A stretch of 64,000 nucleotides of DNA from Coprobacillus sp. (GTDB taxonomy: Bacteria > Bacillota_I > Bacilli_A > RFN20 > CAG-826): contig JAJQAM010000046.1 of assembly GCA_021203805.1 (NCBI GenBank), forward strand, positions 23,840 through 87,839. The letters run 5' to 3'. How positions within the stretch are numbered: the stretch's first letter is position 1; every line of letters starts with the position of its first letter. The position numbers and the translations under genes are program-made. Shown piece after piece: positions 2,639 to 56,170 of this stretch. The notes below the pieces were generated by a model that worked only from the letters and a program-made list of their open reading frames with translations, did not search any database and was not told where the DNA came from.

Positions 2639-3772
2639 ATGGAACCTGAACTGTTAGCTGATGCTCCTATAGATCCTCTGAGTAGTCTGACCATATTTGC
2701 CGAAGATGCTTCGTCAAGTGGCTCGATTTTTTCTTTGCCTAACTGGGCCTGCTGGCTTCTCATTGTTTTAATGGTCATCGTCTGCGGGATTCTCTCAGGA
2801 AGCGAAAACGCTTTTGATAACTGCAATAAATATCACTTTAAGGTATTAGCCGATAAAGGCAAAGTAACTGCGAAATTAATAACAAGATTTATAGATAAGT
2901 TTGATAATACGCTTACCACTGTTTTAGTGGCTAATAACGCCATTCAAACTCTTATGTCCTTCCTTGGGGCCATGGTTTTCTACGGCATGTTTAAGGGAGA
3001 GAACGCTGAGACCCTAGAGGCCATTGTCGCCACTATTGTGATGGCGGTTATTGTCTACGTTTTCTCGGATACGATTCCTAAAATCCTGTCCGATAAGATT
3101 CCTAACGTCATGGTCTATGTCCTAGTCTGGCCGGACTTTATCCTGTCTATTATCATCTGGCCAGTGGCCATCTTATTCCGTCTTATGCTTAAGGGAGTGC
3201 AAAAACTCTTCCACTTTAAGGATGAGTCTATCCTGACTAAGGAAGACTTCATTGAAAAAGCAGATGAAGCGCTTTCTACCGAAAACTTTAATAATGAAGA
3301 AGAAGAGCTCTTTGAGGATAATGAGATTGCCCTAATTGATAGAACTTTCTCTTTTGACACGATTCCCGCTTCTGAGGTTTACACTCCTCTTAATAAGATG
3401 GTGTCAATTGACGCGAAAGACCTAAACGCCAAATACGTTAATAGTTTTATCTTACTTAATGAATACTCCCGTTTCCCTGTCTATGACGGAAGGAAGAATA
3501 ATATCGTGGGAGTCCTTTCTATTAATAACTACTTTAAGGAATATGGACTTGATCCCCACGTGGATGTGAGAAGCGTTCTTCTCCCGCCTGTTTTTGTCTA
3601 TGACGACGAAAAAATTGATGAAGTCTTTAATACGATGAATAGCGAGCAAATCCATCTCGCTATCGTAAAAAATAGAGAAGAAAAGGTTATTGGAATGATT
3701 ACCCTTGAGGATGTCCTTGATGTCCTCGTGGATAAAAATAATCCAGCACCCGTGGGAGATAGTGTCTTATGA
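2639..3772 (+). CDS. CNNM/CorC-family transporter (DUF21 + CBS pair, no CorC_HlyC domain)
   Basis: 377-aa ORF. The N-terminal multi-TM region contains SGSENAF, followed by a CBS pair (FPVYDGRKNNIVGVL..., HLAIVKNREEKVIGMITLEDVLD). The TGA stop overlaps the next ATG (ATGA). Confidence 0.8.
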   Translation: MEPELLADAPIDPLSSLTIFAEDASSSGSIFSLPNWACWLLIVLMVIVCGILSGSENAFDNCNKYHFKVLADKGKVTAKLITRFIDKFDNTLTTVLVANNAIQTLMSFLGAMVFYGMFKGENAETLEAIVATIVMAVIVYVFSDTIPKILSDKIPNVMVYVLVWPDFILSIIIWPVAILFRLMLKGVQKLFHFKDESILTKEDFIEKADEALSTENFNNEEEELFEDNEIALIDRTFSFDTIPASEVYTPLNKMVSIDAKDLNAKYVNSFILLNEYSRFPVYDGRKNNIVGVLSINNYFKEYGLDPHVDVRSVLLPPVFVYDDEKIDEVFNTMNSEQIHLAIVKNREEKVIGMITLEDVLDVLVDKNNPAPVGDSVL

Positions 3773-5157
3773 GTTTCGCTGGGCTTGTTGCTTTATACAC
3801 TGTGATTATCGTGGTCCTTATCCTCCTCTCCTTTTACTTTTCGGTGGCGGATATGGCGTACGGGTCTGTTACCCTATCAAGGATGGAAAGAATTGCGGAA
3901 AAAGGCGATAAAAAAGATAAGACCGCCGCTAAACTAAAGCGTCACTATGATAAGACGATTTCCACCATTCTTTTCTATAACGATGTGTGTAATGCCGGTA
4001 TTGATATCTTCGCCACCTTCCTAGGAGTGTTAATTGCCACGCAGTATGACTGGAGCATGTCGGCTGCTAACGCTGGTCTTATATTCTCTCTTATCGCTCT
4101 CATCTTTAAGGTCGCCTTTGGCGATATAATCGCTAAGTCCATAGGTAAAGTCTATAATTACCGCTTAGCAAGGCTCTACGCCCGGGTGATTAATGTCCTC
4201 TATTATATTTCTATTCCTATCACTTATCTTGTCGGTGGGTTTGGCTCTTTAGTGACTTACCCTATTACTAATAATGTGAAGGAAAACGTCACTAATGATG
4301 AAGACCTACAAGAGATGGTGGATGAGATTGAAGAGGAAGGAACCGTTGATGAAGAAAAAGCGGAAATGCTAAGAGGGGCAATTGACTATGCCACCACAGA
4401 GCTTTATGAGATTATGACCCCTAGAGCTAAGATCTACGCCGTTGATAAAACAAAATCAGTATCTAAGATTCTCTCTGATGAGAAAGCCTTTGCTCACTCC
4501 CGTATCCCTGTCTATGAAGAGAGTATTGATAACATTATTGGATACGTTAGAATGAGAGATCTCATCGCTCTTAAGATTCAAAAAAAGGAAGATATCACCC
4601 CAATTATTGAAAATATCCCTATTTTCCCTCGAACAGAGGAAATTAATGATATCCTTGCTTACTTCAATGAGCATCACTCTCATATTGGAGTGGTCCTTGA
4701 TGAATATGGAGGCACTGAGGGAATTGTTACTAAAGAAGATATCGTTGAGGAAATCGTTGGCGACATATGGGACGAGACTGATGACCCTGAAGAGCTTCTC
4801 GATGAAAAGACAGACGGCACCTTCATCGTGGACGGGAGTATGAACCTAGAAGATTTCTGCGCTGAGTTTGATATCGACTACGACGAGATCGATACCGAGT
4901 ATGTCACAATTGGCGGCTTTATGATTGAGCTTCTCGATGATAGGTTTGCTAATGTTGGGGATGAAGTCTGGCTTGACGGCGTGGGCCTTAAAGTTATCGC
5001 CACGGATAAAAATAGAACCGTGAAGAAGCTTCAGATTACTCCGAAAGTCGAGGAAGAGGATGATGATATCCCTATCCTTGCGGTTATGGGTAGACCTACT
5101 GAAAAAACGAGTAAAAACGAGCCTAAAAAAGACTCTAAAACAAAGAAATCTAAGTAA
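3769..5157 (+). CDS. CNNM/CorC-family transporter (DUF21 + CBS pair + CorC_HlyC transporter-associated domain)
   Basis: 462-aa ORF. CBS pair (RIPVYEESIDNIIGYV, HIGVVLDEYGGTEGIVTKEDIVEEIVGDI) and C-terminal GTFIVDGSMNLEDF...TIGGFMIELL. It is a tandem paralogue of the upstream gene. Confidence 0.85.
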   Translation: MSFAGLVALYTVIIVVLILLSFYFSVADMAYGSVTLSRMERIAEKGDKKDKTAAKLKRHYDKTISTILFYNDVCNAGIDIFATFLGVLIATQYDWSMSAANAGLIFSLIALIFKVAFGDIIAKSIGKVYNYRLARLYARVINVLYYISIPITYLVGGFGSLVTYPITNNVKENVTNDEDLQEMVDEIEEEGTVDEEKAEMLRGAIDYATTELYEIMTPRAKIYAVDKTKSVSKILSDEKAFAHSRIPVYEESIDNIIGYVRMRDLIALKIQKKEDITPIIENIPIFPRTEEINDILAYFNEHHSHIGVVLDEYGGTEGIVTKEDIVEEIVGDIWDETDDPEELLDEKTDGTFIVDGSMNLEDFCAEFDIDYDEIDTEYVTIGGFMIELLDDRFANVGDEVWLDGVGLKVIATDKNRTVKKLQITPKVEEEDDDIPILAVMGRPTEKTSKNEPKKDSKTKKSK

Positions 5158-5172
5158 ATAGGATTTATTTTG

Positions 5173-6264
5173 CTATTTTTTCATCACTCCGATAAGGAGT
5201 TTTTTAATATTTTCGCTTTTTAGCATTTCATTTATATCGTTATATGAAGAAATCTCTTTATTAAGGAGATACGTATGAAAGTTATTGATTAGAATATCGG
5301 TGAAATTCTCGTGTTTTGTATAGCTCACATCAAGCTTATTTATCTCTTCAAAAAGATTAGTTATGAGGCAGCGCCTCGCAAGGGCGATCATTGAGGTTTC
5401 AAGCCAGTAGCTAAATTTAATATGAGGATATCTTTCCTCTAAGGGAATAATCCTAAGATACATTGGAAGACCCTCTCCCGCGTCATGCCACATATCGGAA
5501 TAGACATAGTCAAACTTTCCTCTACTAAGCTCCTCTTTAAGATAGACAAAGGCGTCCTGATAGAGAATCTTAATCTTATTCTTATTTTTGAAACGGCCTA
5601 ATATATTCTCGTTAAAGAGATTAATGACTTCTTTGTTGTTCTCAAGAACAACAATATTTTTCACTTCGTCTTTAAGGGAGAGCATATATGGGAGATAGCC
5701 TAGCCCAAGCCCGCAGACAAGAACATTTCCCCTTGCCTCGCTTATCATCTCCTTCATGGTTTCGATTTCATTTGGATTGATACTCATCCAAATTACCCCT
5801 TTATCGATAAGAGCGAGATACTTATATTCCTCTTTAAAGTAGCCTATCTGAGAGTACTCCTCAAAGTAAGAAGATTCATCCACTTTGATCTCACTAAGCG
5901 GGAAGGGCTCATAGGGCTCGTAGTGAAGATAGGTAAGCTCTAAATTTCCCTCTTTTACTTTGTTAATTAAAAGGTTATTGAATGGATTTTCTCTGTATTC
6001 ATTAATATCTAGCTCGTGAAGTTGACTAAGAAAATATCTCTCTCCTAACTCGCTATTTTCTTCATCTTCAAGATCGATTTGATAGTATTCCATCATCGTC
6101 TCATAAACGAGCTGTTTATCCATTTCCTCTTCTTCGCTGACATCAATATAAAAGCCGTCGCCATACATTTCGTTTAGCATATCCGCTACCGATAAATTGA
6201 CTTCTTTAGCGTCGACGAGTTTATTAAATTCTTCTATGTCTTTTTTAGAGAGGGAAATTTTCAT
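5173..6264 (-). CDS. Class I SAM-dependent methyltransferase / spermidine-synthase-like fold protein with an extra acidic N-terminal domain
   Basis: 363-aa ORF. Gly-rich motif I NVLVCGLGLGYL, acidic beta-2 end VVLENN, then YQDAF and DYVYSDMW. Specific function unknown. Confidence 0.5.
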   Translation of the reverse strand: MKISLSKKDIEEFNKLVDAKEVNLSVADMLNEMYGDGFYIDVSEEEEMDKQLVYETMMEYYQIDLEDEENSELGERYFLSQLHELDINEYRENPFNNLLINKVKEGNLELTYLHYEPYEPFPLSEIKVDESSYFEEYSQIGYFKEEYKYLALIDKGVIWMSINPNEIETMKEMISEARGNVLVCGLGLGYLPYMLSLKDEVKNIVVLENNKEVINLFNENILGRFKNKNKIKILYQDAFVYLKEELSRGKFDYVYSDMWHDAGEGLPMYLRIIPLEERYPHIKFSYWLETSMIALARRCLITNLFEEINKLDVSYTKHENFTDILINNFHTYLLNKEISSYNDINEMLKSENIKKLLIGVMKK

Positions 6265-6300
6265 ACCATTATTATATTGAAATTAATTGGTAGTGATAAC

Positions 6301-6322
6301 AAAAACTAATTGATTAGTTTTT
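6301..6322. repeat. 22-bp palindrome (10-bp arms, 2-nt centre) in a divergent promoter region
   Basis: AAAAACTAAT-TG-ATTAGTTTTT, between the divergent starts at 6264 (-) and 6368 (+). Confidence 0.6.
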
Positions 6323-6367
6323 TATTTTTCTTTAAATAATACTTACTTGCTATTATAATCACTTGTT

Positions 6368-7435
6368 ATGGATTTAGTGAAAGCCTATTGTCCCTATTGT
6401 CATAAAGAGCATTCTAAGGATGACCCTATTTTTATTAATCCCGAAGAAAAAACCGCGATTTGCCCTAACTGTCTTAATGAGTTTAAGACAAAACAGGGCA
6501 TAAAGCTTTTTGATACTTATATCTCTCTTCTCCTTCATGACGCCTATTACACACTAGAGAAGATTAATGACTATGAGATGGCCTACCGTAAATTTGCGGA
6601 CATTCTTGAAATCGATGAGTCCTGCTGCGCCGCTCGTGAAGGAAGAATTATTGCCCTCATTTATCTTTCCACTATGGAGTTTCCTCAAATCCAAAACGCA
6701 CAGATCATGTTTGAAAAGGATCTCGTGCAGTATCTTAAAAATAGACCCGCTAAACTCGTCCCTTTTATTCGAAGAGTGAACGAAACCCTTAACGTTTATG
6801 ATTCAATGCTCCTTCATAAACTCTCTAATCAGGGACTATTCTATACAATTGATGGTCTTCGTTTTTATATGAGTCAGATCGTTGATATCATTAAGTTTAA
6901 GATCTCAATTCTTCAATATCTAGAGAGAATTAGCACTAGGGCTAAAGATAATAGCGGAGTAGTGGAGCTAGTAGGTCAGGTAACTAATGAGTGCAATAAA
7001 TTAAATGGCTTTCTCTCTATGAGCGAGCATTACTCCCCAAGTGGTGACACTTATAACGTTATCTCTATAAATCATGAAACAGGGGAGGCTCTTATTACGA
7101 GAGCGGTGTCCGCTTTCGATACATCAAAAGATGTAGGCCGCTACGGCACTAACTCCTATTTTACTAAGCAGAAAAAGCCTAAAAATAAAAACGAGATCTT
7201 TCACTCAAGAAGTAGCTTATATTCCTTCATGAATTCCCTCGTATCGCTTGGATGGCTGAGCCTTGTCCTTGCTTTCCTCTCTTTTGTTAATACCTTCTTA
7301 GTAATCTTCTTTACTGATATTAGCTATCTTCCCTATATCTTTGGTCCTCTTACTATTGTTTTATTTATTCTTGGACTTATAATGCTTCTAGTCCACCGCA
7401 ATAAGTTCCATCAGTATTATAAAGAAGACAAGTAG
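6368..7435 (+). CDS. Hypothetical zinc-ribbon membrane protein
   Basis: 355-aa ORF. N-terminal CPYC...CPNC zinc ribbon and two C-terminal TM helices. TATAAT at 6354..6359 lies 8 nt before the ATG and there is no SD. Confidence 0.6.
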   Translation: MDLVKAYCPYCHKEHSKDDPIFINPEEKTAICPNCLNEFKTKQGIKLFDTYISLLLHDAYYTLEKINDYEMAYRKFADILEIDESCCAAREGRIIALIYLSTMEFPQIQNAQIMFEKDLVQYLKNRPAKLVPFIRRVNETLNVYDSMLLHKLSNQGLFYTIDGLRFYMSQIVDIIKFKISILQYLERISTRAKDNSGVVELVGQVTNECNKLNGFLSMSEHYSPSGDTYNVISINHETGEALITRAVSAFDTSKDVGRYGTNSYFTKQKKPKNKNEIFHSRSSLYSFMNSLVSLGWLSLVLAFLSFVNTFLVIFFTDISYLPYIFGPLTIVLFILGLIMLLVHRNKFHQYYKEDK

Positions 7436-33454: not shown

Positions 33455-33484
33455 TTGAAAAGAGCTATCCTACTTCTTTATAAT
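33455..33484 (+). promoter_or_regulatory. Near-consensus sigma70 promoter directly abutting the gmk start codon
   Basis: -35 TTGAAA (33455..33460), 18-bp spacer, -10 TATAAT (33479..33484). ATG at 33494, no SD. Confidence 0.6.
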
Positions 33485-33493
33485 ATACATTAC

Positions 33494-34102
33494 ATGGAGA
33501 ATAAAGGTTTACTAATAATTCTAAGTGGTCCTTCGGGAGTGGGGAAAGGGACAGTCCGTAAACACATCATGGCTGACCGCTCTCTCAACCTCAAATATTC
33601 TATCTCGATGACCACCCGTGAGCCTCGTCCTAAAGAGAAGGATGGAAGAGATTACTTTTTCGTGACCGATGAGGTCTTCGAACAAAATATCAAAGATGGA
33701 AATTTTCTCGAATGGGCCGAATTTGTTGGCCATAAATATGGCACTCCAAGAGACAAGGTTGAAGAGCTAAGAAATAGCGGCTATAACGTTTTCCTTGAGA
33801 TTGAAACAAGCGGCGCCGCTCAGGTCATTAAGGCCGTTGGAGATGATCCTGGATTAGTAACTATCTTCCTCATGCCTCCATCTATTGAAGCCCTTGAAGC
33901 GAGAATTCGAAATAGGAAGTGGGAAAAAGAGGAAGTCATCCAATCCCGACTCGCTAAAGGAAGAGTGGAAATTGAAAGTGCTGATCTCTATCAATATACA
34001 GTTCTAAACGATTATGTTCAGCGAAGCGCTTGGGAAATAAGACATATCATTAGAACCCGAATGGCTGAATTAAATGGAGATGAAAAACCTATAGTTGAAT
34101 AA
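33494..34102 (+). CDS. gmk: Guanylate kinase
   Basis: MENKGLLIILSGPSGVGKGT P-loop, then TTREPRPKEKDGRDYFF. I use ATG 33494. The track start at 33455 is a TTG that coincides with the -35 box. Confidence 0.93.
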   Translation: MENKGLLIILSGPSGVGKGTVRKHIMADRSLNLKYSISMTTREPRPKEKDGRDYFFVTDEVFEQNIKDGNFLEWAEFVGHKYGTPRDKVEELRNSGYNVFLEIETSGAAQVIKAVGDDPGLVTIFLMPPSIEALEARIRNRKWEKEEVIQSRLAKGRVEIESADLYQYTVLNDYVQRSAWEIRHIIRTRMAELNGDEKPIVE

Positions 34103-34103
34103 A

Positions 34104-34137
34104 TAAAAAACCTGCTTACGGCAGGTATTTTTTTTTA
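34104..34137. terminator. Bidirectional rho-independent terminator
   Basis: AAAAAA-CCTGC-TTACG-GCAGG-TATTTTTTTTT, between convergent genes. Confidence 0.7.
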
Positions 34138-34141
34138 TTTT

Positions 34142-34462
34142 TTATGCTGCATTGGAAACGTACCAAAGGATAAGTATGACCCACAGGATGGCCCCTATTA
34201 TTCCAAGCCATAATCCCGCTCTAGCTAGATTTTTACTCTTCGGATATTCTTCCTTCTTGCCTAGGCCAATCGCGCTAAAGGTTACTCCGACTAGATTAAA
34301 GAAGACAAGCCCAAAGAAAAGACAGCTTATAAGGGAGACGACAAAACCAGCAATGGCGAATCCGTTATGCCCCACCTGCATATTTGCTTCTATTTCATAG
34401 GAGCAGTGAGGACACACCACTGTGTCTTTTTCAATTTTTTCGTGACAATTTGGACATTTCAT
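34142..34462 (-). CDS. Zinc-ribbon / DUF4190-like small membrane protein
   Basis: 106 aa. CPNC...CPHC ribbon followed by two TM helices. Confidence 0.6.
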   Translation of the reverse strand: MKCPNCHEKIEKDTVVCPHCSYEIEANMQVGHNGFAIAGFVVSLISCLFFGLVFFNLVGVTFSAIGLGKKEEYPKSKNLARAGLWLGIIGAILWVILILWYVSNAA

Positions 34463-34472
34463 ACTTAATTAC

Positions 34473-34853
34473 TCATGCGGCAACAATTAATGCTAGTGCG
34501 ACTATAAAGACTATAAGCCAAATAGCGAGAGCGACGATTCCGATGATTACCCCCGCTTTAGCAAGAGTATTGTAATCGCTATATTGATTTCTTCTTCGAT
34601 AGGCCACTAGGCTAAGGACAAGTCCCACAATTGCGACCACTAAACCCATAAAGACAATAGCGACTAAAGAAACAATAAAACCCGCTAAACCTAAATAATT
34701 TTTAGAACTTTGGCCGTATTTTTTTCTTTCTTCAGGAGTGGTTTCCCGATAAGTATTTCCCGTTTGACTATCCCTATTAAACTGGGGCTCTCCGCAATAG
34801 GGACAAAACTGAGCATCCTCGCTTATCTGTCCGCCGCATTTCTTACAGTACAT
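34473..34853 (-). CDS. Zinc-ribbon / DUF4190-like small membrane protein (tandem paralogue)
   Basis: 126 aa. CKKC...CPYC ribbon followed by two TM helices. Same architecture as the neighbouring gene. Confidence 0.6.
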   Translation of the reverse strand: MYCKKCGGQISEDAQFCPYCGEPQFNRDSQTGNTYRETTPEERKKYGQSSKNYLGLAGFIVSLVAIVFMGLVVAIVGLVLSLVAYRRRNQYSDYNTLAKAGVIIGIVALAIWLIVFIVALALIVAA

Positions 34854-34957
34854 TCTTTTTGCTCCTTTATACCCTAGGTATAAGCATATTATAAACTATG
34901 AACAAATAAGTCGTGAAATAAATTAAATAAATTAGTGAAATAATTTATAATTATTTT

Positions 34958-37153
34958 GTGATTATATTAGAAGTTTTGCCTCAGTATACCATAACAGTCT
35001 TAGACCGCTCTTTTACCTATGTCTATAGCGGCGATAAAAAGGTTGATAGCGGCTACCGTGTTCTCATCAAATTTAATAACAAGCAGATTGCTGGCTATGT
35101 CGTAAGCGCTGAGAAAAGCGATTTAACTAGGGAAGAGTTAATCAAAAAATCAGGATATGATATTGAAGAGATTATCGATGTCATAGACACTGAGCCAATT
35201 CTAAATCAGGATCTTTTAGCGCTTGTGGATGAGATGACGGATTACTATTTATGCGGAAAGATGGCTATCCTTCAATGCATGCTCCCTCCGTCCCTAAATA
35301 TTAGAAAATCCACGTTAAAAGCCCCTAAAATTGCTTATGAATCGCTTCTTGAGATAAACGGAGAGTTTAATACCGAAGGTCTAACCGCAGCCCAAAAAGA
35401 GATCTATGTTTATATAAATGACCACGCTCCAGTGATCAAAAGAGAAATCCATTCTCAGTCTATTATTTCTAAGCTTCTCGCCTCGGGTAAAATTAAAGAG
35501 GTAAAAGTTGAAAAAAGAAGGTTAAATGTAGAACCTGAGGAAAAAGAGAAAATTGACCACTTAACTCCTGATCAAGAAAGGGTTATAAACGAGTTTAATT
35601 CGTCTAGTGATTCCGTCTTTTTACTTGAAGGGGTGACCGGCTCAGGGAAGACTGAAGTCTACTTAACAATCTGCGAGCAGTATCTCAAAATGGGCAAATC
35701 CATTCTCATGCTTGTGCCGGAGATTGCTCTTACTAAAGCCATGAGCGATTACTTCATTTCGAGGTTCCACTCTGACGTTGCTATCCTTCACTCTAACCTC
35801 ACTCCAGCGGAGCGATACGATGAGTACCGCCGCATTCAAAGAGGAGAAGCTAAAATTGTCGTAGGAGCGAGAAGCGCTATTTTTGCCCCTCTCTCTAATA
35901 TTGGTCTCATTATTCTTGATGAAGAGCATACCGAAAGCTATAAGCAGGATGTCTATCCCTTTTATCACGCAAGAGATATTGCCCTAATGAGAGCGAAAAT
36001 GCATGGCGCTAAAGTTATCCTTGGAAGCGCCACCCCATCCCTAGAGTCTCGCTCAAGAGCGTCAAAAGGTATCTATCATCTTCTCACTCTTGATAAGAGA
36101 ATAAACGAGATGCCGCTTCCCTCTGTTACGGTAGTGGATATCTCTAAGAGATATAACATGTCAGATGAGTCCTATTTATTCTCCCGTAGGCTCGTTAGTG
36201 AAATGAGAGATAGACTCGCTAAAAAAGAGCAGATAATCCTTCTTGTTAATAAGAGAGGCTTCTCGACGATGATGTGTAGAGAATGCGGAAAACCTATATT
36301 ATGTCCAACCTGTAAAGTCCCTCTTGTTTATCATAAAAAAGATGACACTTTAAAGTGCCATCACTGCGGTTTTATTGAGGACGCCTGCACCGCATGCCCC
36401 CACTGCGGCTCTGATAAGCTGATGAAACTCGGCTACGGAACCGAGAAAATTGAAGAAGAGATAGGTAAAGTGTTCCCAGAGGCGAAGATTCTTCGCCTAG
36501 ATAGCGACTCCGCAAAAGGAAGAAGCGCTATTAGAGAGATTATAGACGACTTCTCCCACGGGAAAGCGGATATCCTTATCGGAACGCAGATGATTGCTAA
36601 AGGCCATGACTTTAAAAATGTTACCCTAGTCGGCGCTCTTAACGCTGATATCGGGCTTAATAATCCTTCCTATAAGAGTAGTGAGCGCACCTTCCAGCTT
36701 CTCACTCAGGCGATAGGAAGATGCGGAAGAGGGGAGAAAGAAGGCGAGGCGATTATTCAAACCTATAATCCCTCTCACTATGCAATCACTAACGCCGCGC
36801 GTCAGGACTATGAAAATTTCTATAAGATAGAAATGAAAAGTAGAAAGACCCTTAAAAATCCGCCTTACTACTATCTATGCGCTATTCGTCTTTCCTGTAA
36901 AAGCGCTCGGCTAGTGGTTGAGCTCTCTCTTAACGTTAAAGACTCTCTTACTAAAATACTTAAAGATGACGCTATAATCTACGGACCAATTACTCCTTAT
37001 ATCTCTTATTCTGACGGGAAATATAATAGAACCATTCTTCTAAAATACCGAGACGTAGAGAAGATTAAAACCGCTTTAAAAAACATAAAAGATCTTCTCT
37101 CTCATCACGGTAGTATTGATATCGGAATGGATTTTGACCCATATGATTTTTAA
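34958..37153 (+). CDS. priA: Primosomal protein N' (replication restart helicase PriA)
   Basis: 731 aa. Walker A GVTGSGKTEVY, DEEH box and a Cys-rich zinc-binding insert (CRECG...CPTC...CHHCG...CPHCG). GTG start. Confidence 0.93.
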   Translation: MIILEVLPQYTITVLDRSFTYVYSGDKKVDSGYRVLIKFNNKQIAGYVVSAEKSDLTREELIKKSGYDIEEIIDVIDTEPILNQDLLALVDEMTDYYLCGKMAILQCMLPPSLNIRKSTLKAPKIAYESLLEINGEFNTEGLTAAQKEIYVYINDHAPVIKREIHSQSIISKLLASGKIKEVKVEKRRLNVEPEEKEKIDHLTPDQERVINEFNSSSDSVFLLEGVTGSGKTEVYLTICEQYLKMGKSILMLVPEIALTKAMSDYFISRFHSDVAILHSNLTPAERYDEYRRIQRGEAKIVVGARSAIFAPLSNIGLIILDEEHTESYKQDVYPFYHARDIALMRAKMHGAKVILGSATPSLESRSRASKGIYHLLTLDKRINEMPLPSVTVVDISKRYNMSDESYLFSRRLVSEMRDRLAKKEQIILLVNKRGFSTMMCRECGKPILCPTCKVPLVYHKKDDTLKCHHCGFIEDACTACPHCGSDKLMKLGYGTEKIEEEIGKVFPEAKILRLDSDSAKGRSAIREIIDDFSHGKADILIGTQMIAKGHDFKNVTLVGALNADIGLNNPSYKSSERTFQLLTQAIGRCGRGEKEGEAIIQTYNPSHYAITNAARQDYENFYKIEMKSRKTLKNPPYYYLCAIRLSCKSARLVVELSLNVKDSLTKILKDDAIIYGPITPYISYSDGKYNRTILLKYRDVEKIKTALKNIKDLLSHHGSIDIGMDFDPYDF

Positions 37154-50378: not shown

Positions 50379-52775
50379 ATGGGATACGACTATAAAAATA
50401 TAGAAGCAAAATGGAGGAAAAAATGGGAGGAGTGCAATGCTTTTTACTGCGACACCCATGATTTTAGTAAACCTAAATACTATGTTTTAGATATGTTCCC
50501 TTACCCTAGCGGAGAGGGTCTTCACGTGGGCCATCCCGAAGGATATACCGCGAGTGATATCGTCGCCCGAATGAAAAGGATGCAGGGCTATAATGTCCTT
50601 CACCCCATTGGCTGGGACGCCTTTGGACTACCAGCGGAGCAGTACGCGATTAAAACTAATAATCCTCCTAGCGAGTTTACCTATAGAAATATTGCCCGCT
50701 TTAAGGAGCAGATTAAGATGCTAGGCTTCTCTTACGACTGGGATAAAGAGATCGCCACATGTGACCCATCATATTATAAGTGGACCCAGTGGATTTTTAT
50801 TAAGCTCTATGAGAACGGTCTCGCTTATGTCGACTATAAACCAGTAAACTTCTGCCCCGAGCTTGGAACGGTTCTTGCCAATGAAGAAGTAATTGACGGA
50901 AAAAGCGAAGTAGGCGGCTTCCCTGTTATTCGTAAGAATATGAGGCAGTGGGTCCTTAAAATTACTGACTACGCTGATCGGCTTCTTGATGATTTAGAGC
51001 TTCTCGACTGGCCTAGCTCCACCGTGGAAATGCAAAAAAACTGGATAGGTAAGTCTTACGGCGCGGAGATTACCTTTAAGGTAAAAGGAAGCGAGGAATC
51101 ATTTAAAGTCTTCACCACAAGAGCGGATACGCTTTATGGGTGCACCTACTGCTGCCTAGCTCCCGAGCACCCCTTAGTGCTTAAAGTGACCACTCCTGAG
51201 CAGAGAAAAGAAGTCGAAGAATATATAAATCTTGTCTCATCCCGCTCTGATATGGAAAGAACAGAGCTTAATAAAGATAAGACTGGAGTCTTTACCGGAG
51301 CGTATGCTATTAACCCTATAAACGGGAAAGAAGTTCCTATCTATATCGCGGACTATGTCCTTGCTAGCTACGGAACAGGCGCTGTTATGGCGGTTCCCGC
51401 TCATGACCAAAGAGACTATGAGTTTGCAAGTAAATATCATCTCCCAATGATTCAGGTTTTAAAGGGAGATATATCTGGGTCTGCGATGGTTGAGGACGCT
51501 CCTCATATTAATAGCGAAGACGCTAATGGACTAGGAATAGAGGACGCTAAAAAAGTAGTGATAAAGAAACTCGTTTCTTTAGGCGCGGGAAAAGAGAAAG
51601 TAACCTACCGCCTAAGAGACTGGCTTTTCTCTCGTCAGAGATATTGGGGCGAGCCTATCCCCACAGTTACTCTTGAAGATGGAAGTATTATCTCTATATC
51701 CACTGATGAGCTTCCTCTTGAGCTTCCTCCCCTTAAGGAATATAAGCCAAGCGGAACGGGAGAGTCTCCCCTTGTGCACGCTAAAGACTGGCTTAATGTC
51801 ACTATAGATGGAAGGAAAGGAACTAGAGAAACTAACACCATGCCTCAGTGGGCGGGCTCATGCTGGTATTATCTTAGATATATCGACCCCCATAACGATA
51901 AAGAAATTGCGGATAAAAAGCTCCTTGATCACTGGCTTCCAGTGGACCTATATATCGGAGGAAGCGAGCACGCTGTCCTTCATCTTCTCTACGCGAGGTT
52001 TTGGCATAAATTCCTCTATGACATTAATGTAGTGACCTGTAAAGAGCCTTTCCAGCGCCTTTTCCATCAAGGAATGATTCTTGGAGAAAACGGAGAGAAG
52101 ATGAGTAAATCAAAAGGGAACGTCGTTAACCCAGATGAGTGCGTAAAGCGATACGGCGCGGACGCTCTTAGACTCTACGAGATGTTTATGGGACCGCTTG
52201 AAGATTCACTCCCTTGGAGTGAAAGAGGCCTAGAAGGAGCTAAGCGCTACCTCGATAGAGTGTATCGTTTATTTGAGTCTCCTCTTAAAGAAAAGATAAC
52301 ATCAGATAATAACCCAGGGCTTGACTATATCTATAACTACACCGTAAAGAAAGTAACTGATGACTATGAGAACCTTCAGTTTAACACTGCAATTAGTGCT
52401 CTTATGGTGCTTACTAACGAATTCTATAAAGCGGAGACTATTCCGCTTAGCTATATCGAAGGCTTTATTAAGCTTCTTGATCCCGTCGCTCCCTTTGTGT
52501 GCGAAGAGATTTGGAATATGCTTGGTCACGAAAATCTCATTACGTATGAGCCTTGGCCGGTCTATGATGAGTCTAAACTAGCCCAGGACATCGTTCATAT
52601 AGCGGTCCAGGTAAACGGAAAACTACGCGATACATTTGACGCGCCAATCGATAGCGAGGATAATGTACTTAAAGAGATGGCGCTATCCTGCGATAACGTA
52701 AAGCATCACATAGAAGGACACGAAATAAGAAAAATAATCGTTGTCAAAAACAAAATCGTCAATATTGTTCTTTAA
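50379..52775 (+). CDS. leuS: Leucine--tRNA ligase
   Basis: 798 aa with HVGHPEGY (HIGH) and KMSKSKGN (KMSKS). It starts on the base after the glgA stop. Confidence 0.97.
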
Positions 52776-52822: not shown

Positions 52823-53587
52823 ATGAATTTAATGGTGGACGTGGGTAACTCCACAGTTGTCCTTGCCCTTTTTGAGGGCAGTGACATTAAAGCAAAGTTT
52901 AAAATTAAGACGGACACTCATATGAGTCAAAGCGAAATCGAAGTGGAAATTCGTTCGCTTTTTTCTTCGCGTGATTTGCCCTTATCAGTAGTTAAAAGCA
53001 TCGTCTATTCAAGCGTTGTCCCAGTGCTGAATCATAGCATTAAAGAAGCTTTAGCTTCTTTATTTAACGCTGATATTCTTACTATTGGAGCGGGCACTAA
53101 AACGGGACTAGCTCTTCTTATTGATTCCCCTAGTGAAGTGGGAAATGACCTAGTCGCGGATCTAGTCGCCGCTAAGTTTGTATATGGAGCCCCCGCTCTT
53201 ATCGTCGATATGGGAACGGCGACGAAGTTCCTCTTCCTTGATAAAAACGGTGCCTTTAGCTCCGCTCATATTGTCCCGGGCCTAGTTAAAAGCGCGAATA
53301 ATCTTAAAGAATCCGCCTTCCTTCTTCCGGAGGTAGGCCTAGAAAAACCCAAAGGCTTTATTGCGAAGAATACGATCGATGCCATTAATAACGGAATCAT
53401 CTATTCAAACGCGGAAATGATTAAAGGCATGGCGAGGGAGTATAAAAAGGCCTACGGCTATGACTTTAAAGTAATTATTACCGGAGGATGCGCTAATCTT
53501 GTCACGGATTTACTCTCCTTTCCTTTTACCTATGATGAGGATCTACTCATTAAGGGACTAAATATCATATTAGAAAAGAATAAATAA
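52823..53587 (+). CDS. coaX: Type III pantothenate kinase
   Basis: 254 aa with MVDVGNS, VDMGTATK and ITGGCA motifs. GGGAGG SD. Confidence 0.9.
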   Translation: MNLMVDVGNSTVVLALFEGSDIKAKFKIKTDTHMSQSEIEVEIRSLFSSRDLPLSVVKSIVYSSVVPVLNHSIKEALASLFNADILTIGAGTKTGLALLIDSPSEVGNDLVADLVAAKFVYGAPALIVDMGTATKFLFLDKNGAFSSAHIVPGLVKSANNLKESAFLLPEVGLEKPKGFIAKNTIDAINNGIIYSNAEMIKGMAREYKKAYGYDFKVIITGGCANLVTDLLSFPFTYDEDLLIKGLNIILEKNK

Positions 53588-55593
53588 TGACTAATAAAGC
53601 CATCTATAAAATGACAACATATGCAATGATAATTGCCATCATTGCGGTTATGACTTTCATTCCTGAGGTTGGCTATATCTCAATCGGTGGAGTCATCTCT
53701 TTTACCACTGTCCATGTCGTGGTCTTAATATGCGCCATGGTCTTTGGCTGGCAGGAAGCCTTTGTCGCGGGTATTACCATGGGAGTGTGCTCCCTAATTA
53801 AAGCCGCGGCCATGCCTCAATCGGTTTTTGACCCCGACTTTATTAATCCCTTTATATCCGTTCTTCCTAGAGCGATATTTGGCTTAGCTGCGGGTTTTAC
53901 TTATGAAGGAATTAATAAAATTCCTTCACGCGGAGCGAAATACACCCTTGCGATTATCGCCGCTCCTGTATTAACATTATTTCATTCAGTCATAACATTA
54001 TCATGTTATTGGCTATGGGATTATCTATGGTTTCCGATTCATGAAGGGACGATGATGGCCCTCTTATCGACGATATTTACCGTTAACGGCCTGATTGAAA
54101 TGGGAATAGCTCTTGTTCTCGTGCCCTCGATCTCACTAGGCGTCGCCGCTGGTCTACACGGGAAAAACCATGGAATGAAATTTGAAGAACTACTAAGGAG
54201 AAAGAAAACAATGTATCCAAAACTTGTAAAAGACTACGAGACTCCTCTTAAAGAGAACCTCGTTAAATTCTGCGCGATTAACTCCGCTTATGATGAAGCG
54301 AGTAGTGACGAGGCTAATCCCTACGGACTAGGCGTTACCAAAGCTCTTAACTTTATTAAAGATTTAGCGACTTCTGACGGCTTTCGGGCCACCATCTACG
54401 ATAATCAGGTATGCGAAATCCTTATAGGTGAGGGAGAAAAGAATATTACGATTATGTCTCACTGTGACACAGTCCCCGCGGGAGACGGCTGGGAAGGGGA
54501 TCCCTTTACGGTCCGCGAGGAAGACGGAATTCTTTACGGTAGAGGCGTCTCTGATGATAAAGGGCCAACACTCTCGGCGTATTACGCCGTTAAAGCTCTA
54601 AGCGATAATCATATGCTTGGTAACTATCAGGTAAGAATTCTTGTCGGTGGGAATGAAGAGAGAGGCTCTAGCGAGCTTAAATACTATTTTCACACTTTAA
54701 ATAAAGCGCAGCCGACATACGGCTTTACTCCAGATAGCGATTTCCCTCTCGTCTACGGTGAAAAAGGAATGATTAACTATATGGTAAGAGGAAAGGTTGA
54801 TATCCCAGGGGTAAAGTCTATAAAAGCAGGGACTGCTTTTAACGCGGTTATTGATAAGTGCTCTATTACAATGGAGGGTGGAGAAAAGCTTGCCGCTCTA
54901 CTAGCGGAAGATAATATTCCTTATAGCCTAGAAAAAGGTGAAGAAGGCGATGAAGTCATAGTCTATGGGAAAAGCGCTCATGGATCAATGCCTGAAAAAG
55001 GCATAAACGCTGGAATGCTTGGGCTTAAATATCTATCTAAGCTATACCCAGAATGCGAGATTAAAGTACTCGCTAAAAACTATGAAAACGTCAATGGACT
55101 TGGAATTGGAGGATATGCTAGCTCCTCTGTCTTTGGCCTAAATACTCTTAACGTTGGTATTATTACCTATGAAAATGGAGAGCTTATTATGGCGGTTAAT
55201 TTCCGTCATGGCGAGACCACTGACCCGGAAGTAGTGATGAAAAATATAGAGGAAAATACCGCTCCATTTGAAGCTAAATTTATGGGAACGGATAAGTTAC
55301 TTTATTATCCTACAGACTCTCCACTTGTGAAGACCCTTTTAAAGGCCTATCGAGATGAGACAGGAGACATCTCGACTCAGCCTTACGCTATCGGCGGAGG
55401 CACCTATGCTAAGGAAGCGGATAATGTCGTGGCCTTTGGAATTGAGAAGGCGGATTTTGATACCTATATGCACTCTAATAAAGAAAGAGTAAAAGTAAGT
55501 GCTCTTAATGAAGCGATGGCTATCTATGCTCATGCCATTGTCGATCTAGGAAAATTAATTGAAAATGAGAACGAAGTACAAAGCGTGGGCTAA
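53587..55593 (+). CDS. Fusion ORF: ECF-transporter S-component-like 6-TM domain (aa 1 to about 195) + M20 dipeptidase PepV/Sapep-like domain (aa about 209 to 668)
   Basis: A single 668-aa frame with no stop. The C-terminal part carries M20 motifs SHCDTV, GRGVSDDKGP and GGNEERGS. An internal AAGGAG (54195..54200) plus ATG (54211) sits exactly at the PepV N-terminus. Confidence 0.7.
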   Translation: MTNKAIYKMTTYAMIIAIIAVMTFIPEVGYISIGGVISFTTVHVVVLICAMVFGWQEAFVAGITMGVCSLIKAAAMPQSVFDPDFINPFISVLPRAIFGLAAGFTYEGINKIPSRGAKYTLAIIAAPVLTLFHSVITLSCYWLWDYLWFPIHEGTMMALLSTIFTVNGLIEMGIALVLVPSISLGVAAGLHGKNHGMKFEELLRRKKTMYPKLVKDYETPLKENLVKFCAINSAYDEASSDEANPYGLGVTKALNFIKDLATSDGFRATIYDNQVCEILIGEGEKNITIMSHCDTVPAGDGWEGDPFTVREEDGILYGRGVSDDKGPTLSAYYAVKALSDNHMLGNYQVRILVGGNEERGSSELKYYFHTLNKAQPTYGFTPDSDFPLVYGEKGMINYMVRGKVDIPGVKSIKAGTAFNAVIDKCSITMEGGEKLAALLAEDNIPYSLEKGEEGDEVIVYGKSAHGSMPEKGINAGMLGLKYLSKLYPECEIKVLAKNYENVNGLGIGGYASSSVFGLNTLNVGIITYENGELIMAVNFRHGETTDPEVVMKNIEENTAPFEAKFMGTDKLLYYPTDSPLVKTLLKAYRDETGDISTQPYAIGGGTYAKEADNVVAFGIEKADFDTYMHSNKERVKVSALNEAMAIYAHAIVDLGKLIENENEVQSVG

Positions 55594-56170
55594 ACCGCTT
55601 TTAGATGAAAACCCAGAAATTGTTTTAGATAATAATAGACTTATTTCCCAAGCGGATTATTATTTAGAAATCGGCTCTGGAAAAGGGAAATTTCTTTCAG
55701 AAATGGCCTCGAATTATCCTAATTTAACTTTTATTGGAGTGGAAAAGAATATCACTGTCGCGGGCTACTGCCTTAAAAAAATCCTTGAGTCGGGCGTAAA
55801 TAACGCCTTTTTATATCCCGAGGATATTAATTTAGTGCTCCCTGATATTCCTAGTGAGTCTATTCTCTCTATTTTTCTTAATTTTTCTGACCCCTGGCCA
55901 AAGGCAAGACATGAAAAGAGAAGACTAACCACTCCAGGGCTTATTGATGAGTATTATAGAGTTCTGAAGAAAGACGCTCATCTCTATTTCAAAACAGATA
56001 ATGCTGATTTATATAATTATTCCCTTGATCAGTTTAAAAATTCACATTTTCTTACCGAAAATATGAATGAGGACTATAATAGTATAGATAGTTTTGACAC
56101 AGAAACAGAATACGAGCTCAAAGCAAAAGAAAAAGGACAAAAGATATATCGTATAATTCTAAAAAAATAA
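55565..56170 (+). CDS. trmB: tRNA (guanine-N7)-methyltransferase
   Basis: MRTKYKAWAKPLL..., EIGSGKGKF and FSDPWPK motifs. I use ATG 55565 rather than the TTG at 55559. Confidence 0.9.
   Translation: MRTKYKAWAKPLLDENPEIVLDNNRLISQADYYLEIGSGKGKFLSEMASNYPNLTFIGVEKNITVAGYCLKKILESGVNNAFLYPEDINLVLPDIPSESILSIFLNFSDPWPKARHEKRRLTTPGLIDEYYRVLKKDAHLYFKTDNADLYNYSLDQFKNSHFLTENMNEDYNSIDSFDTETEYELKAKEKGQKIYRIILKK

What the first reader, a model, noticed from the sequence alone, without database searches (positions are those of the whole stretch)
53587..55593. ECF S-component fused in frame to a PepV-type M20 dipeptidase, directly after coaX
A single 668-aa ORF starts on the last base of the coaX stop. Its first about 195 aa are a 6-TM protein of the size and helix pattern of an ECF-transporter substrate-capture (S) component. 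The rest is a complete M20 dipeptidase of the PepV/Sapep type (SHCDTV, GRGVSDDKGP, GGNEERGS).

Six TM helices put the peptidase in the cytoplasm. A canonical AAGGAG (54195..54200) plus ATG (54211, Met209) lies precisely at the PepV N-terminus, yet no stop codon closes the S-component.

Adjacency to type III pantothenate kinase suggests a pantothenate or precursor S-component (PanT-like). PepV-type enzymes are known to cleave beta-alanyl dipeptides, and beta-alanine is the pantothenate precursor. A coupled uptake-and-hydrolysis salvage module is therefore conceivable, but this is inference only.
Basis: partly seen in the sequence, partly recalled or inferred. Interest (0 to 1): 0.6.

Follow-up and report, generated by a model that had tools for sequence, protein, structure and literature searches.

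The report
PanT vitamin-capture protein fused to dipeptidase
A small gut bacterium makes one protein that joins a membrane capture subunit for a coenzyme A precursor to an ordinary cytoplasmic dipeptidase; the join is real and arose repeatedly among its relatives, but most likely welds two neighbouring genes together and is not a new salvage pathway.

Summary
The 668-aa ORF is exactly as described. Residues 1-190 are an ECF S-component of the PanT (pantothenate) family. Residues 210-668 are a complete Sapep/PepV-type M20 dipeptidase with all catalytic and dipeptide-binding residues kept.

The fusion is not an assembly error. About 50 protein clusters and 19 of 128 inspected genomes carry it, including all four species of the window's genus.

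Across the order the genes lie in one syntenic block: leuS-coaX-(S)-pepV-trmB. S and pepV are usually separate neighbours. On the PepV tree the fused state changed at least 7 times, while no fusion was seen at 328 other junctions of the block.

The S-component is tied to CoA genes across the whole class. PepV persists where S and coaX are lost.

No genome of the family (0 of 121) has CoaB, and PanC was not found. The organism must live on pantetheine or a later precursor.

Best reading: a bifunctional protein made by stop-codon loss, with both halves working independently. Real metabolic coupling is not excluded, at about 15%.

The parts
52823..53587 (+). coaX, a type III pantothenate kinase homologue of 254 aa. 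Its stop codon overlaps the start of the fusion gene.
   Evidence: PF03309 scores 170 bits. The best PDB hit is B. anthracis PanK-III 2H3G at E 1.8e-44. The motif reads EVGNDL where solved PanK-III enzymes read EVGADR.
53587..55593 (+). Single 668-aa ORF: PanT-type S-component, linker, then Sapep/PepV dipeptidase.
   Evidence: AlphaFold2 model with pLDDT 88 and pTM 0.65.
53587..54156 (+). S-component domain, residues 1-190. It has six helices and an AxxxA motif (A13-MII-A17) in helix 1.
   Evidence: PF12822 is above its cut-off. PanT 6zg3_C scores 6.6e-13 and 4rfs_S scores 2.3e-10, with no other PDB family at E<10. The profile search gives 5e-40 and 3e-39. Helices are at 4-24, 42-53, 55-75, 88-110, 115-148 and 156-190.
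54157..54210 (+). Lys/Arg-rich flexible linker, residues 191-208. This is where the stop of S and the start of pepV lie in relatives with separate genes.
   Evidence: pLDDT is about 61, and below 50 at residues 202-204.
54195..54213 (+). Retained Shine-Dalgarno sequence AAGGAG (54195-54200) and ATG (54211-54213, Met209) at the PepV N-terminus. This is a possible internal start giving free PepV.
   Evidence: Read from the sequence. The signal is kept in G000, G102, three of four genus g20 genomes (not G019), G073, G048 and G046. It is lost in G038, G072, G019, G043, G106, G078, G107, G079 and G156.
54211..55593 (+). Sapep/PepV-type M20 dipeptidase domain, residues 209-668.
   Evidence: TIGR01887 scores 354 bits. 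Sapep 3KHX scores E 4e-65 and PepV 1LFW scores 7e-54. H87, D119, E153, E154, D177, H439, N217, H269 and R350 (1LFW numbering) are all conserved in the alignment. Foldseek gives TM 0.88 to 3KI9 and 0.87 to 1LFW.
55559..56170 (+). trmB (tRNA m7G methyltransferase). It overlaps the last 35 nt of the fusion gene and is a conserved downstream neighbour of pepV.
   Evidence: PF02390 scores 136 bits. pepV-trmB adjacency was seen in 124 loci.
50379..52775 (+). leuS, the conserved upstream member of the syntenic block.

Best explanation
The gene encodes a bifunctional membrane protein.

**The two halves**
- The N-terminal six-helix domain is a PanT-family S-component. It docks on the genome's shared EcfAA'T module and captures a CoA precursor.
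- The lineage has CoaX, CoaD and CoaE but no CoaBC and no PanC. The useful substrate must therefore be pantetheine or a closely related late precursor, which the adjacent CoaX would phosphorylate. This step is inferred.
- The C-terminal domain is a canonical cytoplasmic Sapep/PepV dipeptidase. It hydrolyses ordinary dipeptides that have a free amino and a free carboxyl end.

**How the fusion arose**
- The two genes are old neighbours in a compact housekeeping operon: leuS-coaX-S-pepV-trmB.
- The fusion arose by loss of the S stop codon. It is tolerated because the C-terminus of an S-component and the N-terminus of PepV are both free and cytoplasmic.
- It becomes locked in once the internal start of pepV decays.

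**Consequence**
- Both halves keep working, and no shared substrate is required.
- In this particular gene the retained SD and ATG at Met209 may also give some free PepV.
For: **Shown: identity of the halves**
- The S domain is PanT-family and the peptidase is a complete Sapep/PepV enzyme.
- ecfA-ecfA'-ecfT lie on contig C48 of the same genome.

**Shown: distribution of the fusion**
- Among 128 loci, 19 are fused, 61 have S and pepV adjacent but separate, and 48 have no S at the locus.
- Seven of the separate pairs are in the same frame with a single TAA or TAG between them.
- The fused state needs 8 changes on the PepV tree, and at least 7 are forced by well-supported branches.

**Shown: both halves stay functional**
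- The S domain evolves at the same rate relative to PepV in fused and unfused genera. The median S/PepV identity ratio is 1.02 against 0.94.
- The invariant polar residues of the S domain are kept in the fused forms.
- In G038, G072, G019, G043, G106, G078, G107 and G079 there is no internal start. Each of these genomes has only one PepV hit, so the fusion protein is their only PepV.

**Shown: PepV does not depend on S or CoaX**
- PepV is kept in about 40 genomes without S, and in genus g17 without either coaX or S.
- In G147, S stays next to coaX while pepV-trmB lie 6.6 kb away.
- Outside the order, S sits next to CoaX, CoaB-CoaC or CoaBC, but next to PepV in only 1 of 20 loci.
- S is fused to a type II pantothenate kinase in P0123 and P0124.

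**Shown: CoA pathway**
- CoaB was found in 0 of 121 genomes, with the control positive in 14 of 14.
- CoaX was found in 114 of 121, and CoaD in 5 of 5. CoaE is present in the window's genome.
- PanC was not found.
Against: - Fusions occur only at the S|pepV junction: 19 of 80, against 0 of 79 coaX|S, 0 of 38 coaX|pepV, 0 of 124 pepV|trmB and 0 of 87 leuS|coaX. This asymmetry could reflect selection for tethering or coupling, and not only tolerance.
- The S-PanK fusion found elsewhere shows that, in this S family, a C-terminally fused enzyme can be the one that acts on the imported substrate.
- No transport, kinase or peptidase assay exists for any member. All of them are uncultured MAGs.
- Characterised type III pantothenate kinases are reported not to accept pantetheine (PMC12570885, PMC8721197). 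The pantetheine step therefore needs an unproven change of specificity.
Confidence: 0.6

Rival explanations
1. Coupled uptake and hydrolysis. The S domain imports an amide-linked conjugate of a CoA precursor or another micronutrient, for example a Cys-Gly or aminoacyl derivative of pantetheine. The tethered dipeptidase cleaves it as it enters, as the fused kinase would trap its substrate in the S-PanK fusions.
For: - The fused state changed at least 7 times at this junction, and never at four other junctions of the same operon.
- The fusion is stable through the diversification of whole genera: g1 4 of 4, g20 4 of 4, g48 3 of 3.
- An S-PanK-II fusion has the same topology.
- Mixed disulfides of pantetheine with cysteine or glutathione are known natural CoA precursors (PMC11487621, PMC12406275). 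PepV-like enzymes that cleave S-substituted Cys-Gly exist: NF052477 is hit weakly at 217 bits, far below its cut-off of 1025.
Against: - PepV keeps every residue for an ordinary dipeptide, including R350 for the free carboxylate. Pantetheine has neither a free amine nor a free carboxylate.
- Hydrolysing pantothenate or pantetheine would be useless without PanC or CoaBC.
- PepV is retained where S and CoaX are absent, and S is dispensable in many genomes that are at least 97% complete.
- The S-PepV association is confined to one order, and its synteny is by descent.
- No candidate substrate follows from the data.
Confidence: 0.15
2. Membrane anchor. In fused lineages the S domain has lost its transport function and only tethers the dipeptidase to the membrane, for example near peptide importers.
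For: - S is dispensable in many relatives.
- In several fused genes the fusion is the only PepV, so selection on the ORF could come from PepV alone.
Against: - The S domain is as conserved relative to PepV in fused genera as in unfused ones, with ratios of 1.02 and 0.94.
- The invariant polar residues (T41, R96, H134, E172 in alignment A1) and the AxxxA docking motif are kept.
- It is the only PanT-type S in the genome. It still sits directly after coaX, and the ECF module is present.
Confidence: 0.08
3. Artefact. A sequencing or assembly error removed a stop codon or shifted the frame, so that two separate genes read as one.
For: - The genome is a 78%-complete MAG in 68 contigs.
- The SD and ATG of a separate pepV are still present.
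- Reads could not be checked.
Against: - The same single ORF is found in G102 (81% identity), G038 (58%) and G072 (56%) of the same genus.
- It is also found in 15 further genomes and about 50 protein clusters from independent assemblies, several of which have no internal start at all.
Confidence: 0.02

Closest known systems
PanT, the pantothenate S-component of group II ECF transporters (L. brevis 4RFS chain S; L. delbrueckii 6ZG3 chain C)
   Same: - The similarity runs the full length (profile E 3e-39 to 5e-40).
- It has the six-helix S fold and the AxxxA motif in helix 1.
- It uses a shared EcfAA'T module encoded elsewhere in the genome.
- It is genomically linked to CoA biosynthesis genes.
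   Different: - It carries a 460-aa enzyme on its C-terminus.
- It sits in a lineage without CoaBC, where pantothenate cannot be used. The physiological substrate is therefore probably pantetheine or a related precursor.
- Pairwise identity to the solved PanTs is only moderate (E 6.6e-13 and 2.3e-10).
Sapep (S. aureus SACOL1801; 3KI9, 3KHX) and PepV (L. delbrueckii; 1LFW), M20 dipeptidases
   Same: - The fold matches (TM 0.88 and 0.87).
- The metal ligands, the catalytic Glu and the lid residues N217, H269 and R350 are the same.
- It passes the TIGR01887 cut-off.
   Different: - It is tethered to the membrane through an N-terminal S-component.
- It scores below the PepV equivalog cut-offs: NF005591 gives 359 against 435, and TIGR01886 gives 274 against 632.
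S-component fused to type II pantothenate kinase (P0123 and P0124; PF12822 + PF03630, 448 aa)
   Same: - The same PanT-like S domain is at the N-terminus (35% identity).
- A cytoplasmic enzyme is fused at the C-terminus.
   Different: The partner there is the kinase that acts on the transported vitamin, so the coupling is obvious. Here the partner is a general dipeptidase with no evident shared substrate.
Pantetheine shunt pathway variant 'Apn' (PanK + CoaD + CoaE without CoaBC) described for human gut bacteria (Rodionov et al. 2019, PMC6593275)
   Same: The gene complement is the same: CoaX, CoaD and CoaE are present, and CoaB and PanC were not found.
   Different: - That paper found known B5 transporters in only 12% of such genomes.
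- Here a PanT-family S-component lies directly beside coaX and is a candidate pantetheine importer.

Membership tests
ECF transporter S-component, PanT family | Sequence match to the S-component model and to characterised PanT proteins over the full length | tested here: met
   PF12822 scores 46.9 bits, above the cut-off of 30.7. The only PDB hits are PanT 6zg3_C and 4rfs_S. The profile search gives 5e-40 and 3e-39, against 1e-4 for ThiT.
ECF transporter S-component, PanT family | Six-helix S-component fold with both termini cytoplasmic | tested here: met
   The AlphaFold2 model shows six helices in residues 4-190 at pLDDT of mostly 80-95. The topology is inferred from solved S-components and from the Lys/Arg-rich linker.
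ECF transporter S-component, PanT family | AxxxA motif in helix 1 for docking on EcfT (group II) | tested here: met
   A13-M-I-I-A17 is present in the window protein. The consensus across 28 relatives is AMFIA. The role of the motif is taken from PMC11109136.
ECF transporter S-component, PanT family | A shared EcfA-EcfA'-EcfT energising module in the genome | tested here: met
   G000 contig C48 positions 2888-5237 carries ecfT (PF02361, 127 bits) and two ECF ATPases (358 and 234 bits) in tandem.
ECF transporter S-component, PanT family | Genomic association with CoA biosynthesis genes | tested here: met
   It lies directly after coaX in 79 loci of the order. Outside the order it lies next to CoaX in 9 of 20 loci, with CoaBC adjoining in one of them (G287), and next to CoaB-CoaC in one more (G247). 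It is fused to PanK-II in P0123 and P0124.
ECF transporter S-component, PanT family | Binds and transports pantothenate | not testable with these tools
Without CoaBC, pantothenate would be useless to this lineage, so pantetheine is inferred instead.
Sapep/PepV M20 dipeptidase | Passes the curated family model | tested here: met
   TIGR01887 (Sapep family) scores 354 bits, above its cut-off of 208.
Sapep/PepV M20 dipeptidase | Equivalog of PepV proper | tested here: not met
   NF005591 scores 359, below its cut-off of 435. TIGR01886 scores 274, below its cut-off of 632. It should be filed as Sapep-family, not as PepV itself.
Sapep/PepV M20 dipeptidase | Binuclear metal ligands, catalytic Glu, and the lid residues that hold the dipeptide carboxylate | tested here: met
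   H87, D119, E153, E154, D177, H439, N217, H269 and R350 (1LFW numbering, roles recalled from Jozic et al. 2002) are all identical in the HMMER alignment. They are invariant or nearly invariant in the alignment of 51 fused proteins.
Sapep/PepV M20 dipeptidase | Two-domain fold with a catalytic domain and a lid domain | tested here: met
   Foldseek gives 3KI9 at TM 0.88 and rmsd 2.4 A, and 1LFW at TM 0.87.
   PanC was not found in G000. In 5 high-quality relatives the only hit was a 21-bit partial match on a 148-aa nucleotidyltransferase-like ORF. CoaB was found in 0 of 121 genomes, with the control positive in 14 of 14.
Pantetheine shunt (PanK + CoaD + CoaE without CoaBC) | CoaX, CoaD and CoaE are present and CoaB is absent | tested here: met
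Pantetheine shunt (PanK + CoaD + CoaE without CoaBC) | The kinase accepts pantetheine | not testable with these tools
   - Characterised PanK-III enzymes are reported not to accept it (PMC12570885, PMC8721197).
- This CoaX has Leu where solved enzymes have the Arg of the GADR motif.
- The same variant also occurs next to coaBC in G287.

The most novel reading that the evidence does not exclude
The fusion is a true transport-and-processing machine of a CoA salvage route that has not been described. In bacteria that lack CoaBC, the PanT-type domain would import a peptide-like conjugate of pantetheine, for example a Cys-Gly or aminoacyl adduct produced in the gut. The tethered Sapep-type peptidase would trim it at the inner face of the membrane, and the Arg-to-Leu CoaX variant would then phosphorylate the product.
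Probability: 0.12. Interest if true: 0.8.

Novelty: new variant of a known kind. Interest (0 to 1): 0.45.

Why it matters
**The fusion itself**
- S-components fused to a metabolic enzyme are rare. I found no paper that describes a fusion of an S-component to a peptidase.
- The case shows that an S-component, which is thought to topple in the membrane and dock on EcfT, can carry a 50-kDa cytoplasmic domain. That is useful for mechanistic and engineering work on ECF transporters.

**The CoA context**
- A whole family of uncultured gut and rumen bacteria with small genomes lacks CoaBC. It keeps a PanT-type S-component beside an unusual CoaX.
- The uptake system for pantetheine is stated to be unknown (PMC12570885, PMC6593275). 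Type III kinases are held not to use pantetheine.
- This locus therefore offers concrete candidates for both steps.

**If the fusion is simply tolerated**
- It is a clean natural example of repeated gene fusion by stop-codon loss in reduced genomes.

Tried and rejected
- **Raw-read check of the junction.** I used comparative evidence instead.
- **The search for related loci with the single protein.** It found nothing. The run with the alignment worked and gave organism names.
- **'open_frame_aa' values from the genome search.** These over-called fusions (G010, G034, G120, G017, G058, G071 and others). My own stop-to-stop ORF calls showed real TAA or TAG stops between the genes, so I used my own classification.
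- **TGA=Trp recoding as an explanation of in-frame stops.** Rejected. The separating stops are TAA or TAG, and TGA ends 106 genes.
- **Synteny with coaX as evidence of functional coupling of PepV.** Rejected. leuS, trmB and pncB are conserved just as well.
- **Beta-alanine salvage.** Rejected because PanC and CoaBC are missing.
- **Pantetheine hydrolysis by the peptidase.** Rejected as pointless without CoaBC, and as unlikely given the conserved R350 carboxylate clamp.
- **CoaX Arg-to-Leu change as a marker of CoaBC loss.** Only partly upheld. Seven of 8 genomes outside the order that carry this variant lack CoaB, but G287 has coaBC next to it.
- **Literature search for the residue roles in PanK-III.** It found nothing usable, and PMC4284524 is not held. 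The role of that Arg rests on my memory.
Full report
**1. Observation**

The ORF at 53587..55593 (+) encodes 668 aa. Its ATG shares one base with the coaX stop codon (TAATG). AAGGAG at 54195-54200 and ATG at 54211 (Met209) are present, and no stop separates the two halves.

Pfam finds PF12822 (ECF S-component) on residues 8-182 at 46.9 bits, above the cut-off of 30.7. It finds PF01546 (M20) on residues 289-651. NCBIfam places the C-terminal part in the Sapep family: TIGR01887 scores 354 bits against a cut-off of 208. The scores are below the PepV equivalog cut-offs.

An AlphaFold2 model built on 51 fused homologues has mean pLDDT 88 and pTM 0.65. It shows six helices in residues 4-190, a poorly defined linker at 191-209, and a confident peptidase from residue 210.

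**2. Identity of the two halves**

Against all PDB sequences, the N-terminal 208 residues hit only the two solved PanT proteins. 6zg3_C scores E 6.6e-13 and 4rfs_S scores 2.3e-10. A profile of 28 related S domains scores 5e-40 and 3e-39 on these over the full length. The next family, ThiT, reaches only 1e-4.

Helix 1 carries the AxxxA motif (A13-MII-A17), and the family consensus is AMFIA. PMC11109136 links this motif to assembly with an ECF module. The genome holds one ecfA-ecfA'-ecfT cluster, on contig C48.

The C-terminal 460 residues match Sapep (3KHX, E 4e-65) and PepV (1LFW, 7e-54). In the alignment to 1LFW the following residues are all kept:
- the metal ligands H87, D119, E154, D177 and H439;
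- the catalytic E153;
- the lid residues N217, H269 and R350.

The roles of these residues are recalled from the PepV structure paper. The PDB also holds an R350A Sapep mutant. The model superposes on Mn-bound Sapep at TM 0.88 and on PepV at TM 0.87. The peptidase is therefore a canonical dipeptidase that needs a free C-terminal carboxylate.

**3. The fusion is real**

A search of 5.8 billion proteins returned about 50 clusters of 649-673 aa that carry both Pfam domains, at 40-90% identity. It also returned many unfused PepV-like proteins of 448-462 aa.

I fetched 128 loci from the same GTDB family and order and called stop-to-stop ORFs myself. The result was:
- 19 loci are truly fused. They include all four species of the window's genus (G000, G102, G072, G038), genera g20 (4 of 4), g48 (3 of 3), g46 (2 of 2), g44 (2 of 3), g43 (2 of 3) and g39 (1 of 2), and one genome of another family (G156).
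- 61 loci have a separate S gene directly upstream of pepV.
- 48 loci have no S at the locus.

Independent assemblies that share the architecture rule out an artefact for practical purposes.

**4. How the fusion evolves**

In seven of the separate pairs the two genes are in the same frame, with a single TAA or TAG between them. One point mutation would fuse them. TGA is a normal stop in these genomes.

On a maximum-likelihood tree of the PepV domain (126 rows), the fused state needs 8 changes. At least 7 of them are forced by well-supported branches. Fused and unfused forms coexist within genera g39, g43 and g44.

As an internal control, no fusion was seen at the other junctions of the block:

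| Junction | Fused / total |
|---|---|
| S\|pepV | 19 / 80 |
| coaX\|S | 0 / 79 |
| coaX\|pepV | 0 / 38 |
| pepV\|trmB | 0 / 124 |
| leuS\|coaX | 0 / 87 |

The internal SD and start at the PepV N-terminus are kept in the window's gene and in some others. They are absent in G038 and G072 (same genus) and in G019, G043, G106, G078, G107 and G079. Each of these genomes has a single PepV hit, so there the fusion protein is the only PepV.

The S domain is not decaying. Within genera, the ratio of S identity to PepV identity has a median of 1.02 for fused pairs and 0.94 for unfused pairs. The invariant polar residues of the S domain are retained.

**5. Context**

The block glgA-leuS-coaX-(S)-pepV-trmB-(x)-pncB-tyrS is syntenic through the family and much of the order. 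The coaX-pepV adjacency is therefore inherited, and it says nothing specific about function.

Where the block breaks, S goes with coaX and pepV goes with trmB:
- In G147, coaX-S lie 6.6 kb from pepV-trmB.
- Genus g17 keeps pepV-trmB but has neither coaX nor S.
- Eight genomes of the family that are at least 97% complete have no PanT-like S anywhere but keep PepV.

In 301 genomes of the class, the PanT-like S is found in 167. Outside the order it is always a stand-alone protein. In 20 loci from other families:
- it lies beside CoaX in nine, in either gene order; in one of these (G287) coaBC lies next to coaX as well;
- it lies beside CoaB-CoaC in one more (G247);
- it lies near PepV in one only.

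Two proteins, P0123 and P0124, fuse the same kind of S domain to a type II pantothenate kinase.

In short, S is tied to CoA metabolism across the whole class. The tie between S and PepV is local to this order.

**6. CoA pathway**

- CoaB (PF04127) was found in 0 of 121 genomes of the family and in 0 of 92 high-quality ones. The control was positive in 14 of 14.
- CoaX is found in 114 of 121.
- CoaD is found in 5 of 5 high-quality genomes.
- CoaE is present in the window's genome.
- PanC was not found.
- Within the window, the usual gmk-...-priA slot has no room for coaBC.

This gene complement is the 'pantetheine shunt' pattern that Rodionov et al. described for some gut bacteria (PMC6593275). 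It also means that pantothenate itself is of no use here.

The S domain and CoaX make sense only if they handle pantetheine or a similar late precursor. That is an inference. It conflicts with reports that characterised type III kinases do not take pantetheine (PMC12570885, PMC8721197).

In passing, every S-linked CoaX that I examined reads G[ASN]D[LIM...] where the solved enzymes read GADR. From memory, that Arg contacts the pantothenate carboxylate. Seven of the eight such genomes outside the order lack CoaB, but G287 has coaBC next door. The change is therefore not a simple marker of CoaBC loss.

**7. Mechanism proposed**

- The protein sits in the membrane through the PanT-type domain. That domain captures its ligand outside the cell and delivers it through the shared EcfAA'T motor, and CoaX phosphorylates the ligand. 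The family assignment and the presence of the module are shown. The ligand is inferred.
- The flexible basic linker holds a fully competent dipeptidase in the cytoplasm, where it hydrolyses ordinary dipeptides. The residues are shown. The activity is inferred.
- The fusion arose by loss of the S stop codon. It persists because it is harmless, and because PepV can no longer be made separately once its own start has decayed.
- In the window's gene the retained SD and ATG may still give some free PepV.

I put this reading at about 0.6.

**8. Rivals**

- **Coupling of uptake and hydrolysis (about 0.15).** The striking restriction of fusions to this one junction supports it, and so does the S-kinase precedent. 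Against it, no plausible shared substrate emerges, and the phyletic patterns of the two halves are independent.
- **S domain reduced to a membrane anchor (about 0.08).** Its conservation contradicts this.
- **Artefact (about 0.02).**

**9. Novelty**

Both domains are known families. The combination is annotated in databases only as a 'Sapep family dipeptidase'. I found no description of it in the literature.

The organisms are uncultured gut and rumen MAGs. Record titles name them Coprobacillus sp., Candidatus Onthovivens, Candidatus Enteromonas, Firmicutes CAG:449, and uncultured Mollicutes or Erysipelotrichaceae. From memory these names belong to GTDB order RFN20, which I did not verify.

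I class the finding as a new variant of a known kind, of moderate interest. The CoaBC-less context and the candidate genes for pantetheine uptake and phosphorylation are the part most worth following.

Noticed in passing
window 53144..53152 (CoaX residues G107-N108-D109-L110): This CoaX reads EVGNDL where all solved type III pantothenate kinases read EVGADR. Every S-linked CoaX examined in the order, and in six other families of the class, has a hydrophobic residue (L, I, M or F) in place of that Arg. Seven of 8 such genomes outside the order lack CoaB, but G287 has coaBC adjacent. This may be a subfamily that tolerates pantetheine.
   Followed up: partly
L051, L052, L069, L086, L104, L113 (between coaX and pepV): In genera g6, g40, g7 and g42 and in genomes G136 and G177, the slot between coaX and pepV holds a different PF12822 S-component subfamily. 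It is not PanT-like and has no PDB sequence hit. This looks like replacement of one S-component by another at the same position.
   Followed up: partly
P0123, P0124 (448 aa): A PanT-like S-component (residues 12-182) is fused to a C-terminal Fumble / type II pantothenate kinase domain (residues 279-445). This would be a transport-and-trapping fusion in another lineage.
   Followed up: partly
L064, L092, L118, L120 (genus g17: G016, G057, G089, G114): These genomes are 92-98% complete. They keep pepV-trmB but have no CoaX, no PanT-like S and no CoaB. They must obtain CoA from an even later precursor.
   Followed up: no
L050 (G156) 3120-6509: The fused S-PepV gene (676 aa) is followed directly by a second, free PepV paralogue (453 aa) before trmB.
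   Followed up: no
window 33455..37153: gmk and priA are separated by about 850 bp that holds only small ORFs. The coaBC gene usual at this position in Bacillota is missing.
   Followed up: partly
window 55559..55593: The predicted TTG start of trmB lies 35 nt inside the end of the fusion gene. Overlaps of this kind are the rule along the whole block, yet only the S|pepV junction ever fuses.
   Followed up: partly
G000 contig C3 4570-5112 (L001): This is the only other PF12822 S-component in the genome (82 bits, open frame 239 aa). Its specificity was not determined.
   Followed up: no
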